Source: Mobula hypostoma | Lineage: Eukaryota | NCBI RefSeq assembly: GCF_963921235.1 | Contig: NC_086097.1 | Coordinates: 67,830,001 to 67,894,000, forward strand | Reading direction: 5' to 3' | DNA: 64,000 bases | Part shown: in pieces, positions 5,266-51,718 of the stretch | How positions within the stretch are numbered: the first letter of the stretch is position 1 | How the letters are laid out: each line of letters starts with the position of its first letter | The notes under the pieces: model-generated | Seen by the model: the letters and a program-made list of their open reading frames with translations, nothing else | Told to the model about the DNA's origin: nothing | The model's database searches: none | Translations under genes and position numbers: made by a program

Positions 5266-5492
5266 CGACACACACAAAAAATGCTGGTGAATGCAGCAGA
5301 CCAGGCAGCATCTATAGGAAGAGATACAGTCACTGTTTCGGGCTGAGACTCTTTGTCAGGACTAACAAAGGGTCTCGGCCCGAAACGTCGACTGTACCTC
5401 TTCCTATAGATGCTGCCTGGCCTGCTGTGTTCACCAGCAGTTTTTGTGTGTATTGCTTGAATTTCCAGCATTTGCAGATTTCCTCGTGTTTG
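5266..5492. mobile_element. Palindromic PLE-derived mini-element (inverted pseudo-LTRs plus tail)
   Basis: Inverted arms about 5268-5356 and 5364-5455; tail TTGAATTTCCAGCATTTGCAGATTTCCTCGTGTTTG; 13-bp TSD TGTAA(T/C)TTATAAA at 5253-5265 and 5493-5505. Confidence 0.85.
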
Positions 5493-8140
5493 TGTAACTT
5501 ATAAATATTTTAATGAGCAAAATTTTGTTAAAATAAATAAAGGAAATGTTTTATTTGAGTGCCCAAGCAATTAGAATGATTTTTAAAACTGTGTTTAAGG
5601 AAAGCTTCTTTCTTGTTGATATATAATGACCTCACTTTGTCACTACATAATCAAAGTGTATATTAGTTCAGTAAATGTTTGTTTCCTTTTTAAGAAATTC
5701 TATTTTTTTTAACCTACTGTAATACGTATAGAATCGTAGCAGTTTGTTAGGGTCAATCTTGACATAACCAATCACATGCAACAGTAATCACATGACATGT
5801 CATCTTTAACCTACAGCTTTTTCATCCAATTTACATTTATAAAAAAGATTTTGCATAAATTATTCAAAACAATGAAATACATCTACAAAAAAATTCTACT
5901 GAGAGCTGCAAGAAGAAAACTAGAACAATTAACTCAGAAGGGCAAAAGTATAGAATTTCTCCCTGCAGCCTTTGTCTAGTTTATCAAGCTCACAAAGCCC
6001 CTTTAGATCATTTTAATCCACTGTGGCTAAGTAGTTGAATATGTGATTCAGATTGCCTCTGAAAATTCTGTGCTACCAATCAGCTCTCTGACACCACTCT
6101 TCTCTTCAACCTTCAAATATACTGACAGCAAAGACCAAAAGCCAACACACAAAGGAACAACAAAATGGCAAACTCAGTGTACTCTATATTTAACCCTTAG
6201 AAGAATGTTTTTCTCAACATTTCCTGAGAAACCCAGCTTTTACATCCAAAATATCAGCTCTGTTCTTCTTATTTTAAAATACCTTCAACTAGAAGCACCC
6301 CTCCATTTGGAAAAATACATGGTTATTTCAATTTCTTAACACAATGTCTCCTTCATTGATTCTACCTACAAACATAAAGCATTACATTTTACCACACAAA
6401 AAAATGCTTCATACAGGATAAAATAAAGAAAATAGATTATACAATCCAGATTTTTTGTGTTAAGTAAAATGAAGATTTAATGCTTTAACTTCTGAATAAA
6501 ACTGTACTGCTACTGGAATGCTTTGGGAATTCAATTAGGTGAATTAGAGAGACTGAGTGAAATACTGGGTTATAGTGCTGTATTTTCACCCCTAAGACCT
6601 GTATCTGAAAAGCAGCCTAGATTGATGCAACACAAATCTCCTCACTTTGACAGCTATTTAGGGTCCTAAGTGAAATGAGTTTGTGCTGTCTCAACTCAGT
6701 TCCTAGGAGGTGAATCTACAACCAAAAAGTGCCAATAAATCACAGTGACTACATGCTTAGCTGCTGTAAGTAATAGGAAGGCCACATTAGTTCAAATACA
6801 GGATCATCTTCTGCAACTTGTATGTTGATGGCAAATCAGAAGTGGTTTATTCTGCATTTACATATGTACTGCTACCTAATTGGTAATTAGTGATAAAACT
6901 GTATCTGAAATATTAAAGTATGTTCACTTTCCAAGCACAGAGTTCACTTTAACAAACCATCAATCCATCAAATTATAATAGTTATTTGACTGCAATAATT
7001 TGTGCTAATAAAGTAACAATTCACTTATTTTTGAAAACTGTTTTAAAATTCTTAAACCTTGATTGAATAGAATAGCCAGCTTTGCTGAAGCATCTCAACT
7101 GCTCTTTAACAACTCACTGATTTTCTAAATTACCAATTTACTTATCAAAGTTTCTATTTATATCCAGCAACTAATTAAAGTACTTGCTACCAACAGCTGA
7201 ATAACATTCAACATTTCTATCACTATTTGTAGAACTTATGATAATATTATCAGGGAAAAAAGACACAGCACTGCAATCGAATAAAATGAACATTAATCTG
7301 CTATCATTTGTTTTATCATAAGACAGCAACATTTGTTTCTTACCATTAGTTATACTATTACCCAAACTGAAGGAAAGATGACTAGTCAGTTCCTATAAAT
7401 CACTGATCTAAAACCACCGACATAAGACTGTTATTTGGAAACGGTTAAAGAATCCTTTATACTAAAGAAAATAAATCATAGACTGCAAAGCTATTTGAAG
7501 ATACGAGTAAGACACAGTTGTCTACAATGTTCTGTCTTCAACAAGCAGGAAATTAAACAAAGTCTTACTAGAATAAAGAGCCTAATATTTTTCTAAAAAT
7601 CTCTCTAAGAGCTGTTGTTAATAATATTTCCAAATTAAACTTCATTAATCTCTTATTGGATATTTTTATGTTTTTAAGCTTCATATTTATGATACAGAAT
7701 AGAACACACAGCCACTGTTGGCATGCTTATCTAATTGAACACGAGATTAATATTGCCCTGTTGGTGCACTATGTACTGTCACAGAAACACAATGCAGACC
7801 CAGGATGATGGCTTCCCAAACTGCACTCCCCAGTCTAAAACAAAACAGCTGGAGGTGTAACATAGTATTATGGGAAAATATCATCTACGGCTACAGGGCA
7901 GTGAAGTATCCTGTAGGTCACCATCCATGAAAAAAGGCTGAAAATAGGGCTCAATAGCAATTAAATGCAGAAGCTCGAAATGGATTCTACCAAGATCAGG
8001 ATTTCACCTAGTCAATTGGAGCTTAACTATTAACATTCTGTCTGTAAAGATCTAATACAGGCAGTAAACGTTGAAAGTAACTCTCATTTAAATTCAGAAC
8101 TTTTATCCATATTTTGACAAAAATATAATGAGAACAGTAA

Positions 8141-8358
8141 ACAACAGGAATTCTGTAGATGCTGGAAATTCAAGCAACACACACACAAAAGTTGCTGGTG
8201 AACGCAGCAGGCCAGGCAGCATCTCTAGGAAGAGGTGCAGTCGACGTTTCAGGCCGAGACGTCCTGACGAAGGGTCTCGGCCTGGAACGTCGACTGCACC
8301 TCTTCCTAGAGATGCTGCCTGGCCTGCTGCGTTCACCAGCAACTTTTGTGTGTGTTGT
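8141..8358. mobile_element. Palindromic PLE-derived mini-element (inverted pseudo-LTRs plus tail)
   Basis: Near-perfect inverted arms 8175-8260 and 8274-8357; perfect 13-bp TSD ATGAGAACAGTAA at 8128-8140 and 8359-8371; nearly identical to the 3' end of the PLE at 15235. Confidence 0.9.
8261..8295 (+). ncRNA. Minimal hammerhead ribozyme motif, GAAA box mutated to GGAA
   Basis: GTC-CTGACGA-AGG-GTCTCGG-CCT-GGAA-CG-TC-GACT. Confidence 0.6.
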
Positions 8359-8959
8359 ATGAGAACAGTAATGTACAGTTTTGTCAGATACCAAGCTGAA
8401 CATCCAAAGGTAGTTGATTGATAAGTACAAAAGTCACCTACCATCTCTTTTCTGATAATCAAGAGCAGGCTGGTAGGGAAGGGACGGAACTGGTTCGACT
8501 AGTTTCTTCCATTTAAAAAAAAACTGTGGCTAGGTGAGAAGCCCTCCACAAGTTTAAGGCTCAACAGCTAAAATATTGTTAGGCTACACAGTTCTGAGAG
8601 ATCTCAAGCATTTTTTGGTGTTGCATGTAGTGAATTAAGTTGTCTGGAGACTGGTTCCTGTGACAATAGAAACAATAAAAAAAGTCAGGATGCAATTGGA
8701 ACTTCTGGCTGAGAGAGATTGCAATTGCTCCTATACTAGGACTTTAATGAGTTATTCATGACTCATGAGTCTGGAATGCAAATTTCTCAGGGATTTGGCG
8801 AGATGGAGGCCAACAGAACTGCTCTTCCAATTTTATCACATACACCTAACTGGCGCAAAGATTTTTCGGGGCTGACCTGGCTCAGTGCCCTCTCATCAGA
8901 TTCAGTGCCTAAATTGACAGCAATTTATCTTACTTTAGTCTTAACATTGATTTTAATAT

Positions 8960-11026: not shown

Positions 11027-11126
11027 AAACATAAGCAAATCTGCAAATGCTGGGAATCCAGAGCAACACATACACACAATATGCTGGAGGAAATGTTAGA
11101 TGCTGCTGAGTTCTCCCAGCATTTTA
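11027..11126. mobile_element. Short PLE-derived inverted-repeat relic
   Basis: AATCTGCAAATGCTGGGAATCCAGAGCAACACA..ATGCTGGAGGAA / TGCTGAGTTCTCCCAGCATTTT matches the PLE tail and pLTR end. Confidence 0.6.
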
Positions 11127-11354
11127 GGTCACTAAGCAATTGCCTGCGTCAAAGCTTGTGCCAAACTCAACATCACACTAATGTTTTGCAACTGAATGGT
11201 TGCCAGGGATTTCATGGCCTTGAAGCTGTGACCATTCTGGAATGAAACCACATTCTGGGATGAAACACAAATGATCCTCAGTGCTGACCTGACAAACTTT
11301 CACAGTTCATGTGTGCTTTGCAGGTTAGAATGCACTGACGTATACAATGCAGTT

Positions 11355-14300: not shown

Positions 14301-14791
14301 AGGATTTACTAGAACGTTACCTGGGTTTCATCACCTCAGTTTCAGAGAAAGGTTGAACAAGTTAGGTCTTTATTCTTTGGAGCATAGAAGGTTGAGGGGG
14401 GACTTGATAGAGGTATTTAAAATTATGAGAGGGATAGACAGACAGAGTTGACGTGGATAGGCTCTTTCCATTGAGAGTAGGGGAGATTCAAACAAGAGGA
14501 CATGAGTTGAGAGTTAGGGGGCAAAAGTTTAGGGGTAACACGGGGGGAACTTCTTTACTCAGAGAGTGGTAGCTGTGTGGAACGAGCTTCCAGTAGAAGT
14601 GGTAGAGGCAGGCTCGATATTGTCATTTAAAGTAAAATTGGATAGCTATATGGACAGGAAAGGAATGCAGGGTTATGGGCTGAGTGCAGGTCGGTGGGAC
14701 TAGGTGAGAGTAAGCATTCGGCATGGACTAGAAGGGCTGAGATGGCCTGTTTCTGTGCTGTAATTGTTATATGGTTTTATGGTTATATGGT
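11355..14791 (+). mobile_element. CR1 LINE (copy A), 5'-truncated in ORF1; ORF2 pseudogene
   Basis: ORF1 esterase C-terminus; EN motifs YFNARS, ISETWL, GGGVALL, YYRPP; RT motifs KSPGPD, SQHGF, DFSKAFD, YVDD; several stops and frameshifts; CR1 3' hairpin and (TATGGT)-type tail. Confidence 0.95.
12056..12280 (+). mobile_element. tRNA-derived SINE with CORE-like domain, inserted in the CR1-A endonuclease
   Basis: A-box TGGCCAAGTGG, B-box GTTTGAGCC, CORE-like TGTGCCCTTGAGCAAGGCACTTAA; TSD TGTAGTA at 12034-12040 and 12281-12287. Confidence 0.85.
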
Positions 14792-15330
14792 AAATGGAAG
14801 TACTGAGTAGCCGACAACACAACCCACCCCAAACAGCACAGGGATAGCTTCTGAAATCAGGCTTGGTGATTTATTGGCTCCAATGCAATAAATATCGAAC
14901 TTTTTTTCTGTTGCCTATTTAACAAGTTTACTAATGTAAACTAAAGCTAACTGAGACTACTTAAAATAAATTTGTACTTCTTGGTGAGAAGTATTCACTG
15001 TGGTTGGTGGTGGATTTAATCAGAATACCCTTGTATAGTATATAATATACAAGAAGCATAGACAATGTATATACTATTTCTTGATAAAATACAATTTTTC
15101 TCTGCATCCTCTAGTCATGTATGTTCTCTTGCTGATGTCCCATCCTCTCCTCTTTGTGCAGTTTATCCTACTCTGCACAGTCTCTGCTCATTTTACTGAT
15201 CATGCTCAATTTCAAATGAAATATCTAATAGAAAACAACAGGAATTCTGCAGATGCTGGAAATTCAAGCAACACACATAAAAGTTGCTGGTGAACGCAGC
15301 AGGCCAGGCAGCATCTCTAGGAAGAGGTGC

Positions 15331-15366
15331 AGTCAACGTTTCAGGCTGAGACCCTTCGTCAGGACT
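15331..15366 (-). ncRNA. Minimal type I hammerhead ribozyme in PLE pseudo-LTR (intact core, GUU site)
   Basis: Reverse strand AGTC-CTGACGA-AGG-GTCTCAG-CCT-GAAA-CG-TT-GACT; AGTC/GACT forms stem I, AGG/CCT stem II, palindromic ACGT stem III. Confidence 0.8.
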
Positions 15367-16217
15367 AACTGAAGGAAGAATGAGTAAGGGATTTGAAAGT
15401 TGGAGGGGGAGGGGGAGATCCAAAATGATAGGAGAAGACAGGAGGGGGAGGGATGGAGCCAAGAGCTGGACAGGTGATAGGCAAAAGGGGATACGAGAGG
15501 ATGCAGAAACGAGTTCGGTGGGGCAGGAGCAAGCTGAGACAATAGGTCGGCCAGGACAGGCAGGTTTGTGGATCTTGGGTAGGAGGTAGAAACGGGAAGT
15601 GCGAGGTGTGGGAACTATAAGGTTGGTAGCAGTGGATGGGAGATCCCCTGAGCAGATAAAGTCGGTGATGGTGTGGGAGACAATGGCCTGGTGCTCCTTA
15701 GTGAGGTCATGATCGAGGGGTAAATAAGAGGAGGTATCCGCGAGTTGTCGCTGTGCCTCGGCAAGGTAGAGGTCGGTACGCCAGACTACAACAGCATCCC
15801 CCTTATCGGCGGGTTTAATAATAAGGTTAGGATTAGTGCGGAGGGAGTGGAGAGCAGAGCGTTCCGAAGGAGTGAGGTTGGAATGGGGACAAGGTGCGGT
15901 GAAGTCGAGACGGTTGATGTCCCGTCGGCAGTTAGCAATAAAGAGATCCAGAGCAGGCAGAAGACCAGAGCGGGGTGTCCATGAAGAAGAGGAGGGTTGA
16001 AGACGGGAGAAGGGGTCATCGATGGGTGTGGAAGAGTCCTTGCCGAAGAAGTAGGCTCGGAGACGGAGATGGCGGAAGAAAAGTTCCGCATCATGGCGAA
16101 CACGGAACTCGCTGAGGTGTGGGCGAAGGGGGACAAAGGTGAGGCCCTTACTGAGGACAGAGCGCTCTGCCTCCGACAGTCGAAGGTCAGAGGGGATGGT
16201 AAAGACCCGGCACGGAT

Positions 16218-16638
16218 GAGAGCTGGGATCAGAGGGGGGAGGGGGGAGGCTGCGGGTGTCAATGGAGAGGGGAGGGTTGGGGTGAGAGGAAGATGGAGCC
16301 TCCGAGGGCCCAGGAGCTGACAGTGGGATCTGAAGGAGATGGGATTGCAGAGTATTGGTGGGGGAAGGGGAGACGGGAGTCACAATAGCAGCACATAAAG
16401 ACCCGGCCTGGAGTTCAAGGCTGGAATCTTGAGAGCTGGGATCAGAGGGGGGAGGGGGGAGGCTGGGGGTGTCAGTGGAGAGGGGAGGGTTGGGGTGAGA
16501 GGAAGATGGAGCCTCTGAGGGCCCAGGAGCTGACGGTGGGATCTGAGGGAGACGGAGTTGCAGAGTGGTGGTGGGGGAAGGGGAGACGGGAGTCACAATA
16601 GTAGCACATAAAGACCCAGCCTGGAGTTCAAGGCTGGA
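16218..16638 (-). repeat. 213-bp in-frame tandem duplication (Pro/Ser-rich) in the PLE ORF
   Basis: Units start at 16218 and 16431; both encode DSSLELQAGSLCA..PSAPGPSEAPSSSHPNPPLS..PPPPSDPSS. Confidence 0.9.
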
Positions 16639-16837
16639 GTCGCAGTTGGTGGTTGCGCAATCACTTCGAATGTGTCCATGGAACACATAATAGAAACCTC
16701 ACTCAAGGTAGCAAGTGGTCTTGCAGAAGCCTTGAAATTAGGATAAAATTATTCAGCATTTGTCATGTCACTTCAACAACTTGAATATTTGTAGAATGAT
16801 AGCAACATACAATATATAATGATGGTGTGATAAAATG

Positions 16838-21975: not shown

Positions 21976-24900
21976 TTGCAGGGGGATGGGAACCAGAGTG
22001 CCAGAGCTGACAGTGTGGCTGGGGTGAAAATAAATGATGTTGAAAGTTTAAGCAAATCCGCTGATGGAAAGGTTGTGAGTGGTGGTAAAAATCTTCTGAG
22101 GTGTATATATTTCAATGCTAGGAGTATTGCGGGGAAGGCGGATGAGTTGAGGGCGTGGAGGGGATTATGATGTTGTAGCAATTAATGAAACTTGGCTACA
22201 GGAGGGGCAGGACTGACAGCTTAATATTCCAGGGTTCCAATGTTTCAGATGTGATCGAGGCAGAGGAATGAAAGGTGGGGGAGTAGCATTGCTTGTTAGG
22301 GAAAATATTACAGCAGTGCTCAGGCAGGACAGATTAGAGGGCTTGTCTACTGAGTCCTTATGGGTGGAGCTGAGAAACAGGAAAAGTATGGCCACATTAG
22401 TGGGATTGTATTACAGACCACCCAATAGTCAACGAGACTTGGAAGAGCAAATCTGCAGAGAGATAGCAGGCAACTGCAGGAAACATAAAGTTGTGGTGGT
22501 AGGGGATTTTAATTTTCCATACGTTGATTGGGACTCCCATACTGTTAGGGGTCTAGATGGTTTAGAGTTTGTAAAATGTGTTCAGGAAAGTTTTCCAAAT
22601 CAATATATAGAGGGACCAACTAGAGGGGATCCAATATTGGATCTCCTGTTCGGTAACGAATTAGGGCAAGTGACAGAAGTCTGTGTAGGGGAGCACTTTG
22701 GTTCCAGTGATCATAACACCATTAGTTTCAATTTGCTCATGGACAAGGATAGATCTGGTCCTAGGGTTGAGGTTCTGAACTGGAAGAAGGGCAAATTTGA
22801 AGAAATGAGAAAGGATCTAAAAAGCGTGGATTGGGACAGGTTGTTCTCTGGCAAAGATGTGATTGGTAGGTGGGAAGCCTTCAAAGGGGAAATTTTGAGA
22901 GTGCAGAGTTTGTATGTTCCTGTCAGGATTAAAGGCAAATTGAATAGGAATAAGGAACCTTGGTTCTCAAGGGATATTGCAATTCTGATAAAGAAGAAGA
23001 GGGAGTTGTATGAAATGTATAGGAAACAGGGAGTAAATCAGGTGCTTGAGGAGTATAAGAAGTGCAAGAAAATACTTAAGAAAGAAATCAGGAGGGCTAA
23101 AAGAAGACAAGAGGTTGCCTTGGCAGTCAAAGTGAAGGATAATCCAAGCAACATACATCAAAGTTGCTGGTGAATGCAGCAGGCCAAGCAGCATCTGTAG
23201 GAAGAGGTGCAGTCGACGTTTCAGGCCGAGACCCTTTGTCAGGACTAACTGAAGGAAGAGTGAGTAAGGGATTAGAAAGTTGGAGGGGGAGGGGGAGATC
23301 CAAAATGATAGGAGAAGACAGGAGGGGGAGGGATAGAGCCGAGAGTTGGACAGGTGATAGGCAAAAGGGGATACGAGAGGATCATGGGACAGGAGGTCCG
23401 GGAAGAAAGACAAGGAGGGGGGAGGTTGATAATCCAAAGAGCTTTTACAAGTATATTAAGAGCAAAAGGATTGTAAGGGATAAAATTGGTCCTCTTGAAG
23501 ATCAGAGTGGTCGGCTTTGTGTGGAACCAAAGGAAATGGGGGAGATCTTAAATAGGTTTTTTGCGTCTGTATTTACTAAGGAAGCTGGCATGAAATCTAT
23601 GGAATTGAGGGAATCAAGTAGTGAGACCATGGAAACTGTACAGATTGAAAAGGAGGAGGTGCTTGCTGTCTTGAGGAAAATTAAAGTGGATAAATCCCCG
23701 GGACCTGACAGAGTGTTCCCTCGGACCTTGAAGGAGACTAGTGTTGAAATTGCGGGGGCCCTGGCAGAAATATTTAAAATGTCGCTGTCTACGGGTGAAG
23801 TGCCGGAGGATTGGAGAGTGGCTCATGTTGTTCCGTTGTTTAAAAAACGATCGAAAAGTAATCCGGGAAATTATAGGCCGGTGAGTTTAACGTCAGTAGT
23901 AGGTAAGTTATTGGAGGGAGTACTAAGAGACAGAATCTACAAGCATTTGGATAGACAGGGGCTTATTAGGGAGAGTCAACATGGCTTTGTGCGTGGTAGG
24001 TCATGTTTGACCAATCTGTTGGAGTTTTTCGAGGAGGTTACCAGGAAAATGGATGAAGGGAAGGCAGTGGATATTGTCTACATGGACTTCAGTAAGGCCT
24101 TTGACAAGGTCCCGCATGGGAGGTTAGTTAGGAAAATTCAGTCGCTAGGTATACACGGAGAGGTGGTAAATTGGATTAGACATTGGCTTGATGGAAGAAG
24201 CCAGAGAGTGGTGGTAGAGAATTGCTTCTCTGAGTGGAGGCCTGTGACTAGTGGTGTGCCACAGGGATCAGTGCTGGGTCCATTGTTATTTGTCATCTAT
24301 ATCAATGATCTGGATGATAATGTGGTAAATTGGATCAGCAAGTTTACTGATGATACAAAGATTGGAGGTGTAGTAGACAGTGAGGAAGGTTTTCAGAGCC
24401 TGCAGAGGGACTTGGACCAGCTGGAAAAATGGGCTGAAAAATGGCAGATGGAGTTTAATACTGACAAGTGTGAGGTATTGCACGTTGGAAGGACAAACCA
24501 ACGTAGAACATACAGGGTTAATGGTAAGGCACTGAGGAGTGCAGTGGAACAGAGGGATCTGGGAATACAGATACAAAATTCCCTAAAAGTGTCGTCACAG
24601 GTAGATAGGGTCGCAAAGAGAGCTTTTGGTACATTGGCCTTCATTAATCGAAGTATTGAGTATAAGAGCTGGAATGTTATGATGAGGTTGTATAAGGCAT
24701 TGGTGAGGCCGAATCTAGAGTATTGTGTTCAGTTTTGGTCACCAAATTACAGGAAGGATATAAATAAGGTTGAAAGAGTGCAGAGAAGGTTTACAAGGAT
24801 GTTGCCCGGACTTGAGAAACTCAGTTACAGAGAAAGGTTGAATAGGTTAGGACTTTATTCCCTGGAGTGTAGAAGAATGAGGGGAGATTTGATAGAGGTA

Positions 24901-25877: not shown

Positions 25878-25913
25878 AGTCCTGACGAAGGGTCTTGGCC
25901 TGAAACGTCGACT
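25878..25913 (+). ncRNA. Minimal type I hammerhead ribozyme (intact core, GUC site)
   Basis: AGTC-CTGACGA-AGG-GTCTTGG-CCT-GAAA-CG-TC-GACT; predicted cleavage after 25909. Confidence 0.82.
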
Positions 25914-25974
25914 GCACCTCTTCCTAGAGATGCTGCCTGGCCTGCTGCGTTCACCAGCAACTTTGATGTGTGTT
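25879..25974 (+). mobile_element. 96-bp PLE pLTR insertion consisting of a hammerhead plus 3' flank
   Basis: TSD ACTTCCTA at 25871-25878 and 25975-25982; sequence matches the right arm of 8141-8358. Confidence 0.9.
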
Positions 25975-26005
25975 ACTTCCTATTCTGTTTTTTTTTGCTG
26001 TCGCT

Positions 26006-29334: not shown

Positions 29335-29339
29335 AATGG

Positions 29340-32300: not shown

Positions 32301-32360
32301 GGGATCAGGGGGTATGGGGGGAGGCTGGTACAGGGTTCTGAGTTGGATGATCAGCCATGA
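29340..32360 (+). pseudogene. CR1-D ORF2 (EN plus RT), frameshifted
   Basis: NARS, ITETWL, SDH, NYRPVSL, SQHGF, GVPQGSVLGP and FADD spread over several frames. Confidence 0.92.
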
Positions 32361-32935: not shown

Positions 32936-33030
32936 ACCGATCGTTTCCACGGATGCTGCCCGACCTGCTGAGTTCCTCCACCGTGTTGTGAGTGTTGCTT
33001 TGACCCCAGCATCTGCAGATTATTTTGTGG
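32936..33030 (+). mobile_element. 95-bp PLE 3' fragment (other subfamily) inserted in CR1-C
   Basis: GATGCTGCCCGACCTGCTGAGTTCCTCCA..CCAGCATCTGCAGA; perfect 13-bp TSD TCACTATATTCTG at 32923-32935 and 33031-33043. Confidence 0.88.
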
Positions 33031-35084
33031 TCACTATATTCTGGCGTGGTTCTGGAGAACTGGAAAAATACAAATGTCACTCTACAACGAGGGAAGAAGG
33101 CATAAGAAGGGAAATTATAGGCCAGTTAGCCTGACCTCAGTGGTTGGGAAGATGTTGGAAATGATCGTTAAGGATGAGGTTTCGGAGTACTTGGAGGCAC
33201 ATGATGAAATAGGCCAAAGTCTGCATGGTTTCTTTAAGGGAAAATATTGTCTGACAAATCTGTTGGAATTCTTTGAGGAAATAACAAGCAGGATTGACAA
33301 AGGAAAATTGGTGGATGTTGAATACTTGCATTTTCAGAAGCCTTTAAAAAGGTGCCGCACATGAGGTTGCTTGGCAAGATAACAGCCCATGGTACGACAA
33401 GAAAGAAACTAACATGGATAGAGCATTGGCTGATTGGCAGGAGGCAAAGAGTGGAAATAAAGAGAACCTTTTCTGATTGGCTGCTGGTGATTAGTGGTGT
33501 TCCACAGAGGTCAGTGTTGGGACCTCTTCTTTTTATGTCGTATGTCAATGATGTGGATGAGGGAATTGATGGCTTTCTGGCCATGTTTGCAGATGATACA
33601 AAGATAGGTGGAGGGTTATGTAGTGTTGAGGAAGCAGGGAGATTACAGAAGGACTTGGACAGATTGGGAGAATGGGCAGAGAAGCAGCAGATGGAATACA
33701 GTGTCAGGAAGGTCATGCACTTTGGGAGAAGGAACAAAAGTGTAAACTATTTTCTAAATGGGGAGAAAATTAAAAAATCCGAGGTGCAAAGTGACTTGGG
33801 AGTCATCATGCAGGACTCCCTAAATGTTAATTTGCAGTTTGAGTTGGGGGTGAGGAAAGTAAATTCGATGTTAGGACTCATTTCACGAGGACTAGAATAT
33901 AAAAACAAGGACATCATGCCAAGGCTTTATAAAGCATTGGTGAGGCCTCAGTTGGAGCATTGTGAGCGCTTTTGGGCCCCTTATTTAAGAAAGAATGTGC
34001 TGTCATTGAAGAGGGTTCGAAGGAGATTCAGAAGGATGATTCTGGGAATGAGAGGCTTATCATATGAGGAGAGTTTGATGATTCTGGGCTTGTACTGATG
34101 GAATTTAGAAAAATGAGTGGGGATCCCATTGAAACTTATCAAATGTTTTAAGGCCTAGATAGAAAGGATCTGGAAAGGATGTTTCCTATAGTGGGGGGAG
34201 CTTAGAACCAGAGGTCACAACCTCAGAATAGTGGGACATCCACTTAGAATGGAGATGAGGAAAAACTTCTTTAGCCAGAGTGGTAAATCTATGGAATTCG
34301 CTGTCACAGGCAGCTGTGGGGGCCAGGTCATTTTGTGTATTTAATACAGAGGTTGATAGATTCTTGTTAAGTCAAGGCGTGAAAGATTACGGGAAGAAGG
34401 CAGGAGAATGGGGGTTGAGAGGGAAATGGGTCAGCCTTAATCAAATGGTGGAGCAGACTCAATGGGCCGAATGGCTTAATTCTGTTCATTTATGTTATGG
34501 TCTTATAGTCTTATTCATCTTATTTAAGCCTCTTATAATTTTACATCACTCATCAGGCTCCTTTGTTCTGATGAAATCCAGTGCAAAAGCGAATCATTTT
34601 TATAGTTATAATTGCTTAGCCTTGGCAACATCCTCATAAAAATCCTCTGAAACTTTTTTTCACATCCATTTTACACATTGGTGACTAGAACTGAAAGCAG
34701 TTGGTTACACCTTACAACCACATCAGCTTTTTGAGCCTGAAATGATTCCACTGATGACAGTTACAATAAATAACCTTTGTCAAAATTTTTCACCTTTCCA
34801 TTTCTTCATCTCTGGACATGCACAGCGCAATGAAAACATTGCAGCAGTTACCCAAATACCATGTCTTTGCAAGATGTATATTAAAATGACTCAGACTGTC
34901 AGCACCGCGAAGGTTTGGAGGTGTGAATTTTGAAATAAGAAACAAAAAAATGCCAGCAAGAGTCTCTGAATTACCATCTGAAATCTGACAATGCCAGCAA
35001 TTTTCTGTGACCATAATGCCACCCTATAAGATACAATAAAAACCAAACGATTCAAGAAATGATCAGCAGCCCATTCCATGCCAT

Positions 35085-35240
35085 TAGAGTAAGGAACAGT
35101 TAAAGTTTCAGGTTACAGAGCTTTCATCAGAACTGATGAAAGATTATTGAACTAAAATGATAGCCTCGTCTTTCCCTTGCAGGTGCCACCATCATGCTTA
35201 ATTTTTGAAGAATTTTTGTTTTTATTTCAGATTTCCAAAT
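35085..35240. mobile_element. Old palindromic PLE relic with back-to-back hammerhead cores
   Basis: Centre CTTTCATCAG-AA-CTGATGAAAG; minus strand 35099-35133 reads GTT-CTGATGA-AAG..CCT-GAAA-CT-TT-AAC; tail TTTATTTCAGATTTCCA. Confidence 0.6.
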
Positions 35241-37039
35241 TTCCTTTTCCCTCCAACCTTAGTTCATGCCATTCGTATCAAATTCAGGGAAATTCTAAAC
35301 TATGAAACAAGGAGCCAGCTAATTGTTACTTGTCACTCTCTTATGCTCTCTTGACCTTCCACTGGAATACTTCATTCTTTCAGCATCCTGGCTCTTTACC
35401 CAGAATACAACAAAAATCCATTTAACAAATGATCCATTTTCTTCATTTTTCAGGAACAGATTAATGGCCATCTGCAACATTATGTGATGATGGTACTGTT
35501 GGATCCTGATGCTTTTGTGATCCAAAGGTTCTTTGGAAGTCAAGAATGAGGCAAATAAACTCGTTGGTTATGTTCGCTCTATTAAATATTACAAAAGCAA
35601 AGAAGAGGAAGGAAGAAGCAGCATTGAGAGAGACAAAAGAAATGAAAAGGTAGTCATGGCCTTTTCATATGCAACTAAGATATCAGAAATTAACTAATAA
35701 GATAGCCTGATTCAAGTAATATGACACCTGCCAATGAAACCATGATGTTTCCTGAAAAATATAGACAATTATAACCACGAGAAACCACACTGAACAATTA
35801 CATAAGTATATAGAAAAGATGATTTATAAAAATACAAGCAAGCATATGAAAGTTAATCTACAAAAAAAAAAACAATTCTACACCTTAATCCAATAGTGCC
35901 TTTAATTTACTCCAGGCCATTAAATTGAAGTAACTGGATGGCTGAATGTTTGACGATCTGTAACCCGGTATTTACTGGTTTTTTATTGTTTAATATACTG
36001 TACATTCTGAAATTTTTTTTGTTCTCCCTACCAAATACACTACATTCCCAGATTTACCCTATCTGCCACCTTTATTCCACACTCACTTAACTTGCCTGTA
36101 GCCCTTTGCAGAGGTTCAAGAGTAAAATTGATTTCAGAATTTCACGATGGACTTTGCTGCCAGATTAAAAATGTAAACTACATTTCCTTATGTCAAAGGA
36201 TGTCCCAAGTATCAATTAAATCATAAAGATCAACGCAATGTCATTATATTCAATGCATTTTGTATCTACACTGTTATCCAGCCACTCGTAAGTGATCTAG
36301 CTTGTGGGATGTTTTTTTTTGACTGCTCAAGAATTAAATTATTGTCAATGACAAACAGTTGTCAACATTGCAACCATTTTATTTTTGCTGAGCTCCTAGC
36401 AATAGGATTTTTAAATGGCTTGTTTAAGGCAGCCTCCACGATAGTAGGGAAGTAGAATGGTCATGAATTAATTTAATTAATATCATATAATAAAACAAAT
36501 GTTTCTTCCAATTTTGTTCCTCAGCTCTGAAACTTAGATTAATTGGTACCAATCACGGACCAATGTAACCCAATGGTTTTATATTTTATTATATAATATT
36601 AATTATATTAATTCATGGCTGGAATAGGATTTAACTAATAAATAGTAACTGGCATGGTGTTTAGGTTACACAATGAGGAAGGTTTACCTGGATCCATGAT
36701 ACGGTGCACTTACTGCCTGGGTAAAATAAGTAACAATAACTTACATGAGAGTGAATGTAAAGTGAAACCAATTTTCTTTCTATTTACACGCATGAGCTAC
36801 AAAGCACGATATTTATGATGCCTGAGCAACCTTGCACATCTCGGCACAAAACTAAAAAAATTAGCCCTCATGTGTCCATTCCTAATGTTCTTCTTTTATT
36901 TACGACAAAGTTTCATATGAATTATCAGCATGAATTATGTGCTGGATTTCAAACAATTTCAATTTTCTAGTTTATGGGGGATTAAAACCCAGTCAATTAC
37001 TAGCTGCTTCTGGGATTTTCCAAGGATCAAAACTAGAAC

Positions 37040-38335
37040 AGAGAACATAGAACAGTACAGTTCAGGAATAGGCCCTTCAGACCGCAATGTTGTCCTGAAC
37101 CAATTAAATTAGCAATCAAATAGCCAACTAAACTAATCCCTTCTGACTCCACAACATCCATAACCTTCTATTTTCCTTCCATTTATGTCCCTATCGAAGT
37201 GCATCTTGAAAGTCATAGAAACATAGAAAACAGGTGCAGGAGTAGGCCATTCGGCCCTTCGAGCCTGCACCGCCATTTATTATGATCATGGCTGATCATC
37301 CAACTCAGAACCCCGCCCCAGCCTTCCCTCCATACCCCCTGATCCCCGTAGCCACAAGGGCCATATCTAACTCCCTCTTAAATATAGCCAATGAACTGGC
37401 CTCAAATGTTTCCTGTGGCAGAGAATTCCACAGATTCACCACTCTCTGTGTGAAGAAGTGTTTCCTAATCTCGGTCCTAAAAGGCTTCCCCTTTATCCTC
37501 AAACTGTGGCCCCTTGTTCTGGACTTCCCAACATCGGGAACAATCTTCCTGCATCTAGCCTGTCCAATCCCTTTAAGATTTTATACGTTTCAATCAGATC
37601 CCCCCTCAATCTTCTAAATTCCAATGAGTACAAGCCCAGTTCATCCAGTCTTTCATCATATGAAAGTCCTGCCATCCCAGGAATCAATCTGGTGAACCTT
37701 CTTTGTACTCCCTCTATGGCAAGGATGTCTTTCCTCAGATTAGGGGACCAAAACTGCACACAATACTCCAGGTGTGGTCTCACCAAGGCCTTATACAACT
37801 GCAGTAGTACCTCCCTGCTCCTGTACTCGAATCCTCTCGCTATAAATGCCAGCATACCATTCGCCTTTTTCACTGCCTGCTGTACCTGCATGCCCACTTT
37901 CAATGACTGTCCCTAATGTATCTGCCTTTACCACCATCCCAGGCAGTGCAATTCATGCACCCACCAGTCTCTGTAAAATACTTGCCCCTCACATCTTCTT
38001 TGAAATTATCCCCTCTCATCTTAAATGCATAATACCTCTGGTATTAGATATTTCACCCCGGGGAAAAAAAAGATACTATCTGTCTACTCTACCTACGCCT
38101 CTCAAAATCTTATAAACCTTTATCAGTTCTAAAAAAAGGATCTAGCTCTTTTCTGGTGTATATGATGAATAAACTCTTCTTGGGCTTCCAGCAGGGTACA
38201 GATCTCCCCTCAGCCTTCATCACTCCAGAGAAAACAACCCAAGTTTGACCAACCTCATGTTATAGCACGTGCCCTCTAATCCAGGCAACATCATGGCAAG
38301 CCACTTCTGCACCCTCTCCGAAGCCTTGACATCTA
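37040..38335 (-). mobile_element. Older CR1 3' fragment, interrupted by a younger CR1
   Basis: AGAACATAGAACAGTACAG tail; ERVQKWLAMMLPGL..LGLFSLE on the minus strand. Confidence 0.75.
37215..37908 (-). mobile_element. Young 5'-truncated CR1 (copy F), same family as CR1-D
   Basis: Reverse complement nearly identical to 31738-32431 (KVGMQVQQAVKKANG..; same 3' UTR). Confidence 0.95.
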
Positions 38336-41620: not shown

Positions 41621-42351
41621 AAGCTTGTTTTTCTTTCTCTAATGATTCCCTGAACCCACTCTGACTTCCAGCCTCACTGTTCACTAATCCTCTTATTTCC
41701 TAATTGCACCCCCAGCTTCCACTTTTCCACCCAAGACATCTATTTCATCTTCTCAGTTTGTGTTTCTTGCAAATCCATTGTGACAGATATCTTCCTGCTG
41801 GCTCTGTTCTCCAATCCTCCCACTCCCAATTGTTAGGCTTAAGCCTTACTTCAGTTTCCTCATTTCTTTTACCTCATCCAATATAAGCCCATATCTAATT
41901 TGATCTTGGTTAAATTTCACCAGTTGACCTTTCAATGCTGACACCACCAAAAAAGTCCTGAGGTTCAATATTAGTAAGGAAATGCGTCTCATCAATAAGC
42001 TGGAGTATTTGCCAATGTGTAGGATTCCATTTTACTAAAGGAAACTCACAGGCTTATCCAATCACCTAGAGGGTTTTCTATTAACTATAGAAAAGTGCTC
42101 TTTATCAGCGAGACAGTGAACTGGAGGCAGCTTTCCTAACTTTTTGGAATTCACATTTGCAAAGGTAACCCTGGAGATAATCTTCCATTTTAACATACTG
42201 GTTATCAAGAAATAGGTTCTCACTGCCATCCAATGATGGAATCTTGTTTCAACAGAATTCACCCAGTATGAACAAATATCAGCAGTAAGTGAGGCATCAT
42301 CAAGTGCATAATGACTAAAAGGACATTCAACAGGACAGCAACAGAACATAG

Positions 42352-42881
42352 AACAGACACTAGAGATTTTGCAGATGCTGGAAAATCTTGAGCAACACAC
42401 ACAAAATGCTGGAGGAATTCAACAGGTAAGGCAGCATCAACGTAAGGAAATAAACAGTCGACGTTTCAAGCAGAGACCCTTCATCAGGACTGGAAAGAAA
42501 GGAGGCAGAAGCCAGAATAAGGTGGAGGGAGGGGGAGGAGTACGAGCTGGCAGGTGACAGGTGAGACCAGGTGAGGGGCAAAGTGGGTGCGAGAGGGGAG
42601 ATAATGTGAGAAGCAGGGAGGTGAAAGGTGGAAGAGGGAGGAATCTAATAGGATATGACAGTGAACAATGGAATAATGGAAAGGAGGTTGAGAACCAGAG
42701 GGAGGTGATGGTAAGGTCATGAGGGTGGGGATTAAGAGGGAAACTAAAATGGGGAATGGAAATGAGGAAGGTGGGAGAGGGGAACAGAGGCCAGTGATTA
42801 TTGTAAGTTAGAGAAAATGATGTTCAGATTGGGGGCTACCTAGATGAATACGAGGTGTTGCTTCTCCAATCCGAGTTTGAC
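42352..42881 (-). mobile_element. PLE 3' fragment with GIY-YIG C-terminal remnant and pLTR
   Basis: Minus-strand LEKQHLVF..NIIFSN resembles the PLE ORF end (LEEQHLIF..NIEFSN type); pLTR and tail as in the other copies. Confidence 0.8.
42456..42491 (-). ncRNA. Minimal type I hammerhead ribozyme (intact core)
   Basis: Reverse strand AGTC-CTGATGA-AGG-GTCTCTG-CTT-GAAA-CG-TC-GACT. Confidence 0.78.
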
Positions 42882-42884
42882 ATT

Positions 42885-43417
42885 ATGTAGATATAGGAAC
42901 AGACCCTTCACCCGTGATGATCTAACTAAACCCAGGTGCCTGCACGAGATGAGAATCACTTTATTCCCTGCCTGGTCAAATGTCTGTCTACATGCCTCAG
43001 CCTGCTTCCACTAACTCCTCCGGCAGCACAGTTTCAGGCCTGTAACACACTTAAAAAAAACTTGCCTCATAATCTCCTTGAAATGTTCCCCCTTTCACCT
43101 TGAAGTTATGTCCTCTGGTATTTGACATTTCCACCCTGGGAAAAAGACTTTGACTATCCACCCTATCTAAGCCTCTCATAATTTATATACTTCTATCTGG
43201 TCAGCCACTCCATATCCAAATGTGTCCAACCTCTCTTTATTGCTCACACTCTATGATTCAAGTAACGCTGGTGAACCCCTTACGTACCCTCTCAAAACCA
43301 CAACATTCTTCCAATAATGCAGCAACCACAACAGCATGCAATACTCCAAGTGTGGCCTAAACTAACACTAGTTCCCTGCTTTTATGCTGAACACTCCAAA
43401 CAATGAAGGCAAGTATC
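42885..43417 (-). mobile_element. Old CR1 3' fragment (tail start at 42343, split by the PLE)
   Basis: CCCTATCTAAGCCTCTCATAATTTATATACTTCTAT and ATACTCCAAGTGTGGCCT are reverse CR1 ORF2 C-terminal motifs. Confidence 0.7.
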
Positions 43418-44459: not shown

Positions 44460-47400
44460 AGATCAGGCCACAATGAAGTGCTTGGAGCAGGAGAGAGCAT
44501 CGCTGTACACAGGATTTACTCCTGATGAGATGCAGGAGGAGACCAACCTGGAGTCACCCCTCAGAACCTCCCATTCCATGCAGAGTAACAGAACACTGGC
44601 AGGTTAACTGGCCTCCAGCAAGCCATTGGAGGGAGTAGCTGCAGTCTGAGGAGGACGTTGTCCATATCATTGAGACAATAGATGTCTCCAGACCATGTCA
44701 ACTATCATTGTCAGCTTTGTTATTGGGAGATTTGGCCTAGTGGAGAAGAAAATCAGCAAAGCCCCCTACAAGATGAACTACAGGGCAGCCAAAATATACC
44801 AGCTGCACCAAGAGCTCCAATCCCTGGCTAAACAGTACAGGTGGGCAGGTGAACAAGAGAAACCACCACTTGCTGAGCTCTGTAACCTCCTCAGAAGTAA
44901 GCTTATGTCACTGCACAAGGCAGAATGGCACAGAAGATGGGGGAGGGGGGAGGAGAGATGGCCAGTAAATGAGCTGCCTTTATTGTGAACCCTTATGGAT
45001 TCAAGCAGCTGCCAGGACTGAAGCATAGTGGACAACTCACATTCTCCAAACAAAGGATGGATCTACACCTTCAGGACTCCCTCAGCAACTCAGCTAGAAA
45101 ACCATAACACCCATGTAAGTCCTCCAGCTCCTGTGGTTGAGTTCAATGGCAAGGAGATCCAGGAAGTAGGCCGAGCAGTCAGAGCTCGTTCTGTCCCTGT
45201 TCCAAGTGAGGACCCTACAAAGTGTACAAACACTGCCCTAAACTCCTCCAGCTGCTTTGGATATTCCTGCGGGTTATCTGGCATAAGCAAAAGGTCGTGG
45301 GCCAGTGGACGTGTGCAGAGGGAGTCTCGATCCCCAAAGAGGAGACAGATCAGCCATGATCTTATTGAATGGCAGGGCAGGCTTGATGGTCCAGATGGCC
45401 TACTCCTGCTCCTATTTCTTATGTTCTTATTAACTCCACGGACACTGAGCAGCTTAGAACCATCTTGCTGCTCAGAGTGGAAGGGAAGATATTTTACATT
45501 ATCACTTCTGGTCGCCTGACTGAGTTTCTTCTCAAAAACAGCTACATTGATACATCAGGGATGGGTTCTCAGAATGCCAGGGTGCCTGGAAAACACCAGT
45601 GTGGTTTCCCAGCTAATCAGGAAAGCGAATGAAGGAAAAGGAGACCTAGTCATACTATGGCCAGACCTTGCCTAAACATTACCACATAAACTGGTGGAGA
45701 TCACACTGAACAGACACTACGTTTCCAGGAAGATAGAAAACCTCATCCTGGAGAACTACAGGAACTTAAGATTGAGAGACTCTTCAGGAATGACCACATT
45801 GGGCTGGCGCTGGTTTAAGAAGAGGATTATAACCAAATGCAGTCCTCTTCTCCCTAACCATGAACATGCTGGTTAAGGCAGCCAAAATGGAGTGTAGAAG
45901 CCCTCTTACAAAGACAAGTATAAGGCAGCCTCCAATCAGTCTTCATGGATGACCTTACGGTGACAACTACATCAGTCCAGGCAGTAGATGGACTCTCCAG
46001 GCGCTAGAGAGGTTCATCACATGGGCAAGGAGGAGCTTTAAGCCAGAAAATTCAAGGTGTCTGGTGTTAAAGAAAGGCAGGCACAAGGTCAAGTTCCATT
46101 TCTGCTTGAATGGTATTGCTACCCTATCCTATCCTACCCATCTCTGAGAAACCAGTCAAGAGACTGTGGCTGGCATCTGGAATACCACCAATGAGTTAGA
46201 AGTCTGACTCATCAGTGTTGACAAGTCAAGCCTATCTGGTAAGTTTCAGGCCTGGATCTACATTTCTTGGCATCCTTCCCTGAATCCTCTGGTTCATGCT
46301 GGTATATGAGGTACCTATCTCAACAGTTGAGGCTCTTAAAAGAAGTTCAATAGCTACCTTTGGAGATGGCTGAGTCTCCAACGTAGCCTGAGCAGCATGG
46401 CTCTGTATGGGAAGAAGAATAAACTGCAGCCTCCCTTCAGCAGCCTGAATGAGGAGTTCATGGTTTCCCATACAAGAGAATTGCTGCTGTCCAGAGACTC
46501 CAAAGCAGTGGAGATGGCTGAATCACGTCTGAGGCACGAGGATCTGGTAAGGACAGTAACAACAGGTCAGGTGGGGCTGGGCACTTCCCTTCCACCCACT
46601 TTGACAGGGTTCCAGGGACAGATGGAAACTGATCCAGGAAGAGGTACAGGCAGCTGTTGAGGAAGTGCATAACACCAGGATAGTAAGAATGGGGCAGCAG
46701 TGATCTTGGACAGGGTGGGAAGGTGAACTGAAGCGAATGATCTCCTGGTCCAACACCTGGCAGGTAGAACCCTAGCGCATCAAGTTCATGATCCAGACTG
46801 TGTACAACTTCCTGCCTAGTCCAGCGAACCTTTTTGCTTGGGCCAAAACTGAGACACCATCATGGCCTCTCTATCCTGGTGAAGAGACTCTGGAAGACAT
46901 CCTCAGCAGCTGCCCAGAAGCCCTGGGAGAAGGTTGCTACTGCTGACAGCATGACCAGGCGCTGAAGGCAGTGGGAGAAAGTACCTCCTCAGCCATTAAC
47001 AGCAGTAAGCACCTCCGCCAACCCAGAAAGCTCATAGTCTTTGTCAAAGCTGGAGACCAACCACAGCCTCAGCCTAGATCACCAGAAGGCTTGCTTGCCA
47101 CAGCGTCTGACTAGCAACTGAAAGTTAATCTTGGCAAGAAATTAAAGTTCCCTGACTTCATCGCATCATCATCACTGAAGCCTGACATGGTCATTCAATC
47201 AGAAACCTCGAAGCAGGTGGTCATAGTTGACCCTGATAGTTCCTTGGAAAGACCAGATTGAGGTGGCACTTGAACACAAGAAAGCCCAGTACCAGGAGCT
47301 AGTAGAGCAGTGCGAGAGACACGAGGTGGAGTGCACGATGTCAGCCTATAGAGGTGGGGTGTAGAGGGTTTGCTGGCTGGTCACTGTGCAGAACTTACTC

Positions 47401-47646
47401 CCTCCCTGGCATTATGGAGGCTGCAAAGAGAACAGCCATCAAGACCATCACAGAGGTTGCTGAGCATTCCTCCAAATGTTTATGGATCAAGAGGGTGATC
47501 CATGGACTAATGCTGCTGGGACACATGCCAGGGCCTAATCAACCCTGGCTGTGTTGCCTTGGCGAGGGTGTCTCTTTGTTGGAAGACCTGAAACACCTAA
47601 TGACCCCAGGTTACATTACTGAAGATGTGTCCCAGTGCTTCTTAGG
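44460..47646 (+). mobile_element. Decayed HERO/R2-group non-LTR retrotransposon (RT plus restriction-like endonuclease)
   Basis: FMDDLTV (45942), ILSSC..HDQAL zinc-knuckle region (46896-46965), KPDMVI (47178), EVGCRGFA (47351); candidate TSD ATGAAT at 44454-44459 and 47647-47652. Confidence 0.8.
45347..45430 (+). mobile_element. Short CR1 3' tail inside HERO
   Basis: GATCAGCCATGATCTTATTGAATGGC..TGGCCTACTCCTGCTCCTATTTCTTATGTTCTTAT. Confidence 0.8.
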
Positions 47647-48039
47647 ATGAATCTCAGCATTATGGTAGTATATGGTGACATTTTGATAATAACTTTAATT
47701 TAAACTTTGTTGATGCACTTCAAGGAAGGAGCAATAATAAAAACATTGAAGTTAAGGAAAGACCGTCTGAACTTTTTGCTCAGCTGGATACAGATGCTGC
47801 ACATTGCTGAACAGAAATTTTTTGGAACAGCAGCATAGAATCTGATCTAAGCAAGACTCTTTTACATTCAATTACATTGCTATGGTCAGGGCTGTCACTA
47901 TTGCCATTGACCAGGTGTTTGACATAAATACCACAAGGTCAGATGGGAGGCTGGGGTGTATGTTATGCAGTACACAACACAACATATTTCAGCATACCTG
48001 GTTCCCCCCCCACAAACAGCTTTCATCTGCTCTTCACCT

Positions 48040-48245
48040 TCTCCTCATCTGATTCCATTTATCACCCAGTCAACGTACAGTCTCCATCAACAGCCCCTTC
48101 CCCTCATACTGCCATATATGTCTTAGCATTTCCCCTTTACCCTCTCAGTCCTGATGCAGGATTTCCTGCACAGATGTTGCTTCACCTGATTCCAGTATTC
48201 TGTTTCTTTGTTCGGCATTCTAGTATCTGCAGTCTCATTTGCTTT
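48040..48245 (+). mobile_element. Decayed PLE 3' relic
   Basis: CAGTCCTGATGCAGG..CAGATGTTGC..TCCAGTATTC..TAGTATCTGCAG. Confidence 0.45.
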
Positions 48246-51660: not shown

Positions 51661-51718
51661 TGATACCACAACTATCTCCATGCCGAACACCATGAACCAT
51701 TGCCCAGAGGACAAACAG

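What the first reader, a model, noticed from the sequence alone, without database searches (positions are those of the whole stretch)
5266..48245. Dispersed family of hammerhead-ribozyme-carrying Penelope-derived elements
About ten insertions share a PLE pseudo-LTR (at 2.1, 5.3, 8.1, 11.0, 15.2, 23.1, 25.9, 32.9, 35.1, 42.4 and 48.1 kb). Most retain AGTC-CTGANGA-AGG-loop-CCT-GAAA-CG-TH-GACT. This is a type I hammerhead core with stem I (AGTC/GACT), a 3-bp stem II, and a 4-nt palindromic ACGT in place of stem III. Cores are intact at 15331, 25878 and 42456 and mutated at 8261 and 23211. Minimal dimerising hammerheads are established for PLEs. The density here, and the many short TSD-flanked non-coding derivatives, suggest a high-copy ribozyme-bearing non-autonomous retroposon system (inference).
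Basis: partly seen in the sequence, partly recalled or inferred. Interest (0 to 1): 0.75.

Follow-up and report, generated by a model that had tools for sequence, protein, structure and literature searches.

The report
Penelope end-pieces with minimal hammerheads
These eleven scattered insertions are mostly decayed end-pieces of a Penelope-type jumping gene in what is likely a ray genome; three keep the complete tiny hammerhead-ribozyme motif already known from such elements, and they are likely dead by-products of the full-length element rather than a separate ribozyme-driven family.

Summary
The repeat family is real at all 11 loci. A minimal type I hammerhead descriptor finds 3 complete motifs (15331-, 25878+, 42456-; chance mean 0.015), so 'most retain' the core is overstated: 3 of 11. 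The 15.2-kb copy joins the motif to a Penelope RT fragment with Neptune-type relatives. Public contigs show two 3' ends 34 nt apart, the known PLE 'tail'. Six of 11 copies have convincing TSDs; up to five are head-to-head inversions. No tandem hammerheads exist, 5' ends vary, and the one internal deletion is not the family form, so a non-autonomous retrozyme system is not supported. All structural features are published PLE traits. Residual interest: 5 of 14 arms start at the hammerhead's first bases (likely the RNA 5' end), and the 32.9-kb copy starts at the predicted scissile bond. The scan noted this family kind before on other DNA (28 notes). Cleavage is untested.

The parts
2084..2280 (.). 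Old, degenerate copy; left arm 2084-2209 (-) starts at -31 relative to the scissile bond; possible inverted right arm; core damaged; no true TSD
   Evidence: (left arm 0/1000 null; right arm 132/1000, not significant)
5266..5492 (.). Head-to-head inverted insertion: short (tail-less) left arm on -, long (tailed) right arm on +; both arms carry G8>A and C11.1; TSD 5253-5265 / 5493-5505 (13 nt, 1 mismatch)
   Evidence: (I18)
8141..8358 (.). Head-to-head inverted insertion: tailed left arm starting in stem II (-18), tail-less right arm starting at -31 with A13>G; TSD 8128-8140 / 8359-8371 (13 nt exact)
   Evidence: (I20)
11027..11129 (.). Small inverted remnant lying wholly downstream of the hammerhead; no core; no convincing TSD
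   Evidence: (0/1000 and 1/1000)
15235..16687 (-). Longest copy: N-terminal PLE ORF piece joined by an internal deletion at 15501/15502 to the pyrimidine-rich 3' region, intact hammerhead and tail; TSD 15226-15234 / 16688-16696
15502..16680 (-). PLE ORF fragment (Pro-rich N-terminal repeat, then the region up to the start of the RT core); 72% identical to a Chiloscyllium protein, 89% over 63% of the query to a Mobula protein
15331..15366 (-). Intact minimal type I hammerhead (H17 = U; predicted cut between 15335 and 15334)
15233..15267 (-). 34-nt PLE tail between the family's two 3' end points
   Evidence: loose ends (692 and 162 contigs in X1)
23148..23427 (-). Tail-less 280-nt copy inserted in a CR1-type LINE ORF; core 23211-23246 with G8>A; TSD 23138-23147 / 23428-23437
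25879..25974 (+). 96-nt solo stub starting at stem I of an intact hammerhead (25878-25913); tail-less; TSD 25871-25878 / 25975-25982
32936..33030 (+). 95-nt tailed stub of a different subfamily that begins at G1.1, the base after the predicted scissile bond (that G is shared with the TSD); TSD 32923-32935 / 33031-33043; inserted in a CR1-type LINE
   Evidence: profile position 33
35064..35248 (.). Old inverted copy centred on the hammerhead start; left arm keeps the catalytic boxes but not stem II or the palindrome; right arm weak
   Evidence: 0/1000 and 12/1000
42357..42896 (-). About 540-nt tailed copy of a diverged subfamily with intact core 42456-42491; borderline TSD 42351-42359 / 42897-42905
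48094..48246 (+). Old tailed copy; stem I and first core box present, second half deleted; upstream boundary and TSD not defined
   Evidence: 0/1000

Best explanation
These insertions are truncated and inverted end-pieces of endonuclease-bearing Penelope-like retrotransposons, likely Neptune-type, that carry the known minimal hammerhead motif in their pLTR and were likely written into the genome by the full-length element's own RT-endonuclease and then left to decay. Shown: family membership, three complete motifs, TSDs, linkage to a PLE ORF fragment, two 3' ends 34 nt apart, CpG-type decay of the core. Inferred mechanism: the protein nicks target DNA and primes reverse transcription inside its RNA at one of two sites about 68 and 102 nt downstream of the scissile bond. 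If it starts in a downstream pLTR of a read-through RNA, the copy extends into the 3' region and ORF (15.2, 23.1, 42.4, 48.1 kb). If it starts in the first pLTR, it soon runs off the RNA 5' end, which likely lies at the hammerhead's first bases, giving ~100-135-nt stubs (about 55% for this sub-claim). Priming on both target strands likely gives the head-to-head copies with one tailed and one tail-less arm. The ribozyme would act only in the parent's tandem transcripts, as a dimer and probably with protein help; the dispersed copies are likely inert, and cleavage is likely not needed for insertion.
For: PLE ORF fragment in cis with the motif; 976 homologues, full-length ones RT + C-terminal GIY-YIG, 28 of 46 long relatives with the CX2-5CxxC linker. 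Contig loose ends at 15233 and 15266/7 in three of four runs match the two RT starts bounding a 30-40-bp tail in PMC11167929. Inverted pLTR, one-sided tail and 8-10-bp TSD are described in PMC8557442 and PMC3846280. 5 of 14 arms start at -35..-31 (uncorrected binomial p 4e-4 to 2e-6, bin chosen after seeing the data). In 5.3 and 8.1 kb each arm holds sequence the other lacks. Both 5.3-kb arms share G8>A, as expected if a catalytically dead template was copied; PAc core mutants still insert in vitro. The monomer folds into a rod that pairs G5-G8 with C15.2-H17 (p 0.73-1.0), and the active double hammerhead is 11-21 kcal/mol above the best dimer in a secondary-structure model.
Against: No full-length element or EN domain is in the window; my test for an EN C-terminus at 42.8 kb was negative. 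Neptune assignment rests on relatives 44-57% identical, not on a tree. The transcription start was not measured; the idea came from earlier scan notes, and loose ends at 15366 are partly other subfamilies. Four of the five arms starting at -35..-31 are inversion centres, only one is a solo stub. A perfect palindrome with later asymmetric deletion could also give the inverted copies. ViennaRNA has no hammerhead tertiary energies.
Confidence: 0.78

Rival explanations
1. A dedicated non-autonomous family (SINE-like or non-LTR retrozyme): the short ribozyme-bearing unit is transcribed on its own and mobilised in trans by PLE protein.
For: Short non-coding copies dominate and carry TSDs; pLTR sequence alone can drive insertion in trans (PMC3846280); tandem retrozymes were found in one chondrichthyan genome and linked to PLEs (bioRxiv 10.64898/2026.07.22.740005); 5' ends cluster at the motif start.
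Against: No tandem hammerhead unit in 64 kb; 9 of 14 arms start elsewhere; 25.9-kb stub and the ORF-bearing 15.2-kb copy match at 93 of 97 nt; the 15.2-kb deletion is not the family form.
Confidence: 0.12
2. The hammerhead cleaves in vivo and the 3' product, or a circle made from it, is sometimes the RT template, so some copies start exactly at the cut site. This can hold alongside the best explanation.
For: The 32.9-kb copy starts at G1.1; one listed contig piece covers exactly 15233-15334 (table 8, record 1). All 10 listed variable sites in the 36-nt motif are CpG positions, and other subfamilies leave the alignment at 15330 and 15366, the motif borders.
Confidence: 0.2
3. Inverted copies arise by fold-back self-priming of one cDNA, with later trimming at the hairpin tip, not by two primings.
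For: Arms are 86-99% complementary and share private variants; self-priming was proposed for such palindromes (PMC3846280).
Against: At 8.1 and 5.3 kb the tail-less arm reaches further 5' while the other arm alone has the tail, so neither arm can template the other without a later deletion; PAc extends both target strands in vitro.
Confidence: 0.3
4. The motif is kept as a promoter or protein-binding hairpin and no longer cleaves in this lineage.
For: Predicted inactive rod; U11.1 in about 69% of X1 depth weakens stem II; 8 of 9 Xenopus dimers did not cleave; Penelope has an internal promoter in its pLTR (PMC2377424).
Against: All catalytic positions and the palindrome are kept in two diverged subfamilies (15.2/25.9 and 42.4 kb); G8>A is rarer than C7>U at the same CpG (4.9% vs 13.9% of X1 depth); PAc's motif cleaves with protein.
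Confidence: 0.15

Closest known systems
Minimal hammerheads (min-HHR) in pLTRs of metazoan PLEs (Cervera and De la Pena 2014, PMC4209133)
   Same: Type I topology, 4-bp stem I, extra nucleotide between A9 and 10.1, G10.1 pair, palindromic 15.2-16.2, mostly single dispersed motifs, some close pairs on opposite strands, thousands per genome.
   Different: The text I read names fish, coelacanth, Xenopus and reptiles, not sharks or rays (supplements not read). Here stem II is short (4 bp with G-U pairs) and the main subfamily has G10.1-U11.1.
EN+ PLE insertion units, Neptune/Nematis type (PMC8557442; PMC3846280)
   Same: 5' truncation, adjacent inverted copy, 30-40-bp tail on one end, TSD of about 8-13 bp; relatives have RT, CX2-5CxxC linker and C-terminal GIY-YIG.
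   Different: No full-length or partial-tandem copy in this window; most inserts are only 95-280 nt.
PAc, Poseidon element of Anolis carolinensis (Frangieh 2024, PMC11167929)
   Same: Two RT start sites downstream of the hammerhead bounding the tail; copies keep an uncut hammerhead.
   Different: Different clade; PAc's ORF starts inside the hammerhead, which I could not test here; the 5'-end cluster at the motif start is not described in the parts I read.
Non-LTR retrozymes (PMC7229834; bioRxiv 10.64898/2026.07.22.740005)
   Same: Non-coding, type I hammerhead, pLTR-derived.
   Different: Retrozymes are tandem repeats of 150-450 bp units giving circular RNA; here copies are solo or inverted, of variable length, and carry the PLE tail.

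Membership tests
Minimal type I hammerhead (min-HHR) | CUGANGA and GAAA boxes, UH cleavage site, open stem I | tested here: met
   3 complete motifs, null mean 0.015 in 200 shuffles
Minimal type I hammerhead (min-HHR) | Extra nucleotide after A9 and G10.1-C11.1 pair | tested here: met
   Bulged-A register favoured; 11.1 is C in 31% and otherwise mainly U in X1 depth, both pairing with G10.1
Minimal type I hammerhead (min-HHR) | Palindromic stem III replacement allowing dimers | tested here: met
   ACGU in all 3 complete motifs
Minimal type I hammerhead (min-HHR) | Self-cleavage as dimer or with protein | not testable with these tools
   Needs in vitro assay; contigs cannot show RNA ends
Rfam hammerhead families | Covariance-model match | tested here: not met
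   No hammerhead family at E<=5 (window) or E<=10 (25860-25930)
EN+ Penelope-like element | PLE-type RT ORF in cis with the pLTR | tested here: met
   15502-16680(-), profile iE 4e-95
EN+ Penelope-like element | C-terminal GIY-YIG endonuclease | tested here: inconclusive
   Present in 3 of 3 full-length relatives scanned, one below the curated cut-off; absent from the window
EN+ Penelope-like element | 30-40-bp optional tail, inverted truncated copy, TSD | tested here: met
   34-nt tail; inversions; TSDs at 6 of 11
EN+ Penelope-like element | Partial-tandem pLTR-ORF-pLTR copy | tested here: inconclusive
   None in 64 kb; no genome held
Neptune clade | CX2-5CxxC linker between RT and EN; RT phylogeny | tested here: inconclusive
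   Linker in 28 of 46 relatives of 850 aa or more; also a Nematis trait; no tree built
Non-LTR retrozyme | Tandem units, at least two consecutive complete hammerheads | tested here: not met
   0 of 8 tandem arrays contain the motif; window only
Non-LTR retrozyme | Abundant linear and circular monomer RNA | not testable with these tools
   Only contigs of guessed RNA runs were available
Non-autonomous PLE-derived family (SINE-like) | Shared 5' end or shared internal deletion across copies | tested here: inconclusive
   5 of 14 arms share a start near -32, 9 do not; 15.2-kb deletion not the family form

The most novel reading that the evidence does not exclude
The stubs are a genomic fossil record of the PLE RNA's own 5' ends: most run off a capped start at the hammerhead's first base, and a minority, like the 32.9-kb copy, run off the ribozyme-cut end, which would be direct evidence that a metazoan minimal PLE hammerhead cleaves in vivo, countable over many thousands of copies.
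Probability: 0.2. Interest if true: 0.55.

Novelty: new member of a known kind. Interest (0 to 1): 0.22.

Why it matters
As it stands it is an ordinary, very abundant PLE family in a cartilaginous fish, useful mainly for repeat annotation. It would matter more if the start points of the stubs map the element's RNA ends: whether minimal PLE hammerheads cut in vivo is open (PMC4209133 gives no in vivo evidence; PMC11167929 found no RNA ends at the cut site), and a genome with this many copies makes a simple count of 5' ends at the scissile bond possible.

Tried and rejected
Rfam scans: no hammerhead hit, only hairpin-driven miRNA matches. Whole genome not held. Pfam found nothing on the window's PLE fragment. 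EN C-terminus at 42.8 kb, suspected by eye: not supported by profiles. Collection scans: viral 6 loci, metagenome 0 then 119 loci; none of 125 aligned over 40 nt, so chance. Raw-read runs X21 and X22 laid 0 reads: no test. Summed contig depth is no copy number and cannot rank parts, so no genome-wide figure is given. RNA status of X9 and X17 is a guess; transcription not shown. The 2.1-kb 'TSD' was rejected as element-internal. The apparent G5>A at 5.3 kb right arm is ambiguous: inversion junction or mutation. Stem I T-A at 35.1 and 2.1 kb may be covariation but sits at inversion junctions in degenerate copies; not counted. 2.1R and 35.1R were left out of the 14-arm count because their alignments were weak (132/1000, 12/1000). 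In one search the G8 column was tied, so it was counted as non-CpG with A as majority; the printed counts overstate non-CpG change in the core. Luense et al. 2017 (PMC5785218) is not held; I saw only its reference line and the summary in PMC6765202. Look-up of earlier findings by sequence returned nothing.
Full report
Setting. The window is repeat-rich vertebrate DNA with several CR1-type LINEs (RVT_1, APE and GDSL matches). The PLE protein fragment's best named hits are Chiloscyllium (72%), Mobula (89% over 63% of the query) and Hypanus, so the host is a cartilaginous fish, likely a ray (inference). No whole genome is held.

Observation. Single-copy nhmmer searches hit all 11 loci, three only weakly (2.1, 35.1, 48.1 kb). 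The weak arms 2.1L, 11.0L, 35.1L and 48.1 each outscored 1000 of 1000 random window pieces. The family is therefore real at 11 of 11 loci. A descriptor needing stem I, both core boxes, stem II and UH finds three motifs, with C3 at 25882(+), 15362(-) and 42487(-); 200 shuffles gave a mean of 0.015 and never more than 1. Damage: G8>A at 23.1 kb, both 5.3-kb arms and 2.1 kb; A13>G at 8.1 kb; no core at 11.0 and 32.9 kb; half a core at 48.1 kb. Rfam has no matching model.

Structure. In contigs of run X1, position 11.1 is C in 31% of depth; C and U both pair with G10.1, whereas C cannot pair with the A. This is the min-HHR consensus of Cervera and De la Pena (PMC4209133; parts 1-2 of 4 read; supplements not read). 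The monomer is predicted to close into an inactive rod, G5-G8 pairing with C15.2-H17 (p 0.73-1.0), and the double-hammerhead fold scores -3.5 to -9.5 kcal/mol against -17 to -30 for the best dimer. The model lacks tertiary terms, so this only suggests a need for help, in line with the protein-assisted PAc ribozyme (PMC11167929; parts 1-2 of 4 read).

Origin. The 15.2-kb copy carries, on the ribozyme strand, an ORF piece at 15502-16680 that matches positions 164-408 of a profile of full-length relatives (iE 4e-95). Three full-length relatives scanned have RT plus C-terminal GIY-YIG, and 28 of 46 relatives of 850 aa or more have the CX2-5CxxC linker that marks Neptune and Nematis (PMC8557442, 12 of 20 passages seen). 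Neptune is likely; no tree was built. At 15501/15502 the ORF jumps to the 3' region. Contigs of X1, X2 and X9 leave the alignment there and run on into normal RT sequence (58, 54, 10 contigs), and X2 and X9 contigs run on into the 3' sequence seen in the 23.1-kb copy (144, 8). The deletion is thus not the family form.

Ends. Relative to the scissile bond (+1 = G1.1), 3' ends fall near +100 to +104 or +60 to +69 (35.1L fades at +38). Contigs show the same two points, 15233 and 15266/15267, in X1, X2 and X9 (X1: 692 and 162 contigs). The 34-nt gap is the PLE tail, which Frangieh et al. tie to two internal RT start sites. Every copy that has the motif keeps sequence beyond the cut site, so the templates were uncut there. 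TSDs of 8-13 nt are convincing at 6 of 11 loci. The 5.3- and 8.1-kb inserts are head-to-head inversions with one tailed and one tail-less arm; 11.0, 35.1 and perhaps 2.1 kb are older cases. This layout is described for EN+ PLEs (PMC8557442; PMC3846280, 12 passages seen). In both clear cases the tail-less arm reaches further 5', so each arm has sequence the other lacks; two primings explain this most simply, and PAc extends both target strands in vitro. Fold-back with later trimming remains possible.

5' ends. Of 14 arms with a usable alignment, five start at -35 to -31 (stem I begins at -32), two inside the motif (-25, -18), one at +1, two downstream and four far upstream. Earlier scan notes on other DNA proposed that the RNA starts at the motif, sometimes with an extra G (AI notes, leads only). 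My tests are partial: the cluster is unlikely under uniform truncation (uncorrected p 4e-4 to 2e-6, bin picked afterwards); 410 X1 contigs leave the alignment at 15366, but their consensus partly resembles the 42.4-kb subfamily; 3 of 12 listed joint rows show one extra base, a G on the sense strand, at 15365-15366. No extra G is visible in the window's own copies. Penelope of D. virilis has an internal promoter in its pLTR (PMC2377424, 8 passages seen). The 32.9-kb stub begins at G1.1, and one listed contig piece spans exactly 15233-15334. This is a single window case, and its G is shared with the TSD.

Selection on the core. All 10 listed variable sites inside the 36-nt motif are CpG positions, while 10 of 12 listed sites in the 98 nt downstream are not (40 of 58 rows shown). 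Other subfamilies part from the reference at 15330 (392 contigs) and 15366 (410), the motif borders. At the C7-G8 CpG, the tolerated C7>U is 13.9% of X1 depth and the damaging G8>A 4.9%. These hint at selection in source elements. Within the window, non-CpG change does not separate core from flank, and copies decay after insertion: G8>A in 3 of 6 young arms.

Against a non-autonomous system. None of 8 tandem arrays holds the motif, so the defining retrozyme feature is not met in this window (PMC7229834, 12 of 34 passages seen; bioRxiv 10.64898/2026.07.22.740005, parts 1-3 of 5 read; its supplementary tables, unseen, include a chondrichthyan and may bear on this). Inverted copies fold into long hairpins that mask both motifs. 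The 25.9-kb stub matches the ORF-bearing copy at 93 of 97 nt. Abundance is real: about 95,000 contig records of one run lie on 306 nt, and holders come from several coded organisms, but this gives no copy number.

Novelty. Five literature searches found no paper on this family in sharks or rays, nor on stubs starting at the motif; Repbase and Dfam could not be searched, and Luense et al. 2017 was not available (seen only through the review PMC6765202, 6 passages). Every structural feature is otherwise in print. The scan has 28 earlier notes with these key words in at least 17 genomes. Verdict: new member of a known kind, interest 0.22. The open thread is whether stub start points record the RNA's capped and cut ends.

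Noticed in passing
window 23143-25014 (+): The 23.1-kb PLE piece sits in frame inside a CR1-type ORF and creates an apparent 623-aa open frame with RVT_1; such fusions could mislead gene prediction.
   Followed up: partly
window 11340-14790, 21730-25260, 28300-32430, 32430-34510 (+); 37215-37909, 56100-58700 (-): Several CR1-type LINE copies (APE and RT matches; boundaries by eye); the one at 28.3 kb has a GDSL-esterase ORF1 (28690-29331) and 170-bp 5' tandem repeats (27752-28237). 31737-32431 and 37215-37909 are 94-95% inverted copies.
   Followed up: partly
window 44500-47620 (+): Decayed element that by eye resembles a restriction-like-endonuclease non-LTR retrotransposon (zinc-knuckle-like stretch near 46.85-46.96 kb); label recalled, not tested.
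   Followed up: no
window 50380-51660 (+): Broken frames that by eye resemble gag and protease of an LTR retrotransposon; no Pfam match; label recalled.
   Followed up: partly
window 51664-52074 (+): 136-aa frame with a weak RRM match (Pfam E 0.017; poly(A)-binding protein chain E 8e-7); resembles a processed fragment of RBM25 from recall, lying between two retroelement remnants.
   Followed up: partly
run X9 laid on window 15215-15520: The guessed-RNA run shows 14 T>C places against 4 in DNA run X1, and fewer core-damaging variants (G8>A 0.9% vs 4.9%). Could reflect A-to-I editing of inverted copies or expression of younger copies, but the runs are from different organisms.
   Followed up: no
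window 35098-35133 (-) and 2210-2250 (+): Two old arms show T-A instead of C-G at the first pair of stem I; possible covariation in older subfamilies, but both lie at inversion junctions.
   Followed up: partly
window 16217-16641: 213-bp tandem duplication inside the Pro-rich N-terminal part of the PLE ORF; a Hypanus relative also has short N-terminal repeats.
   Followed up: no
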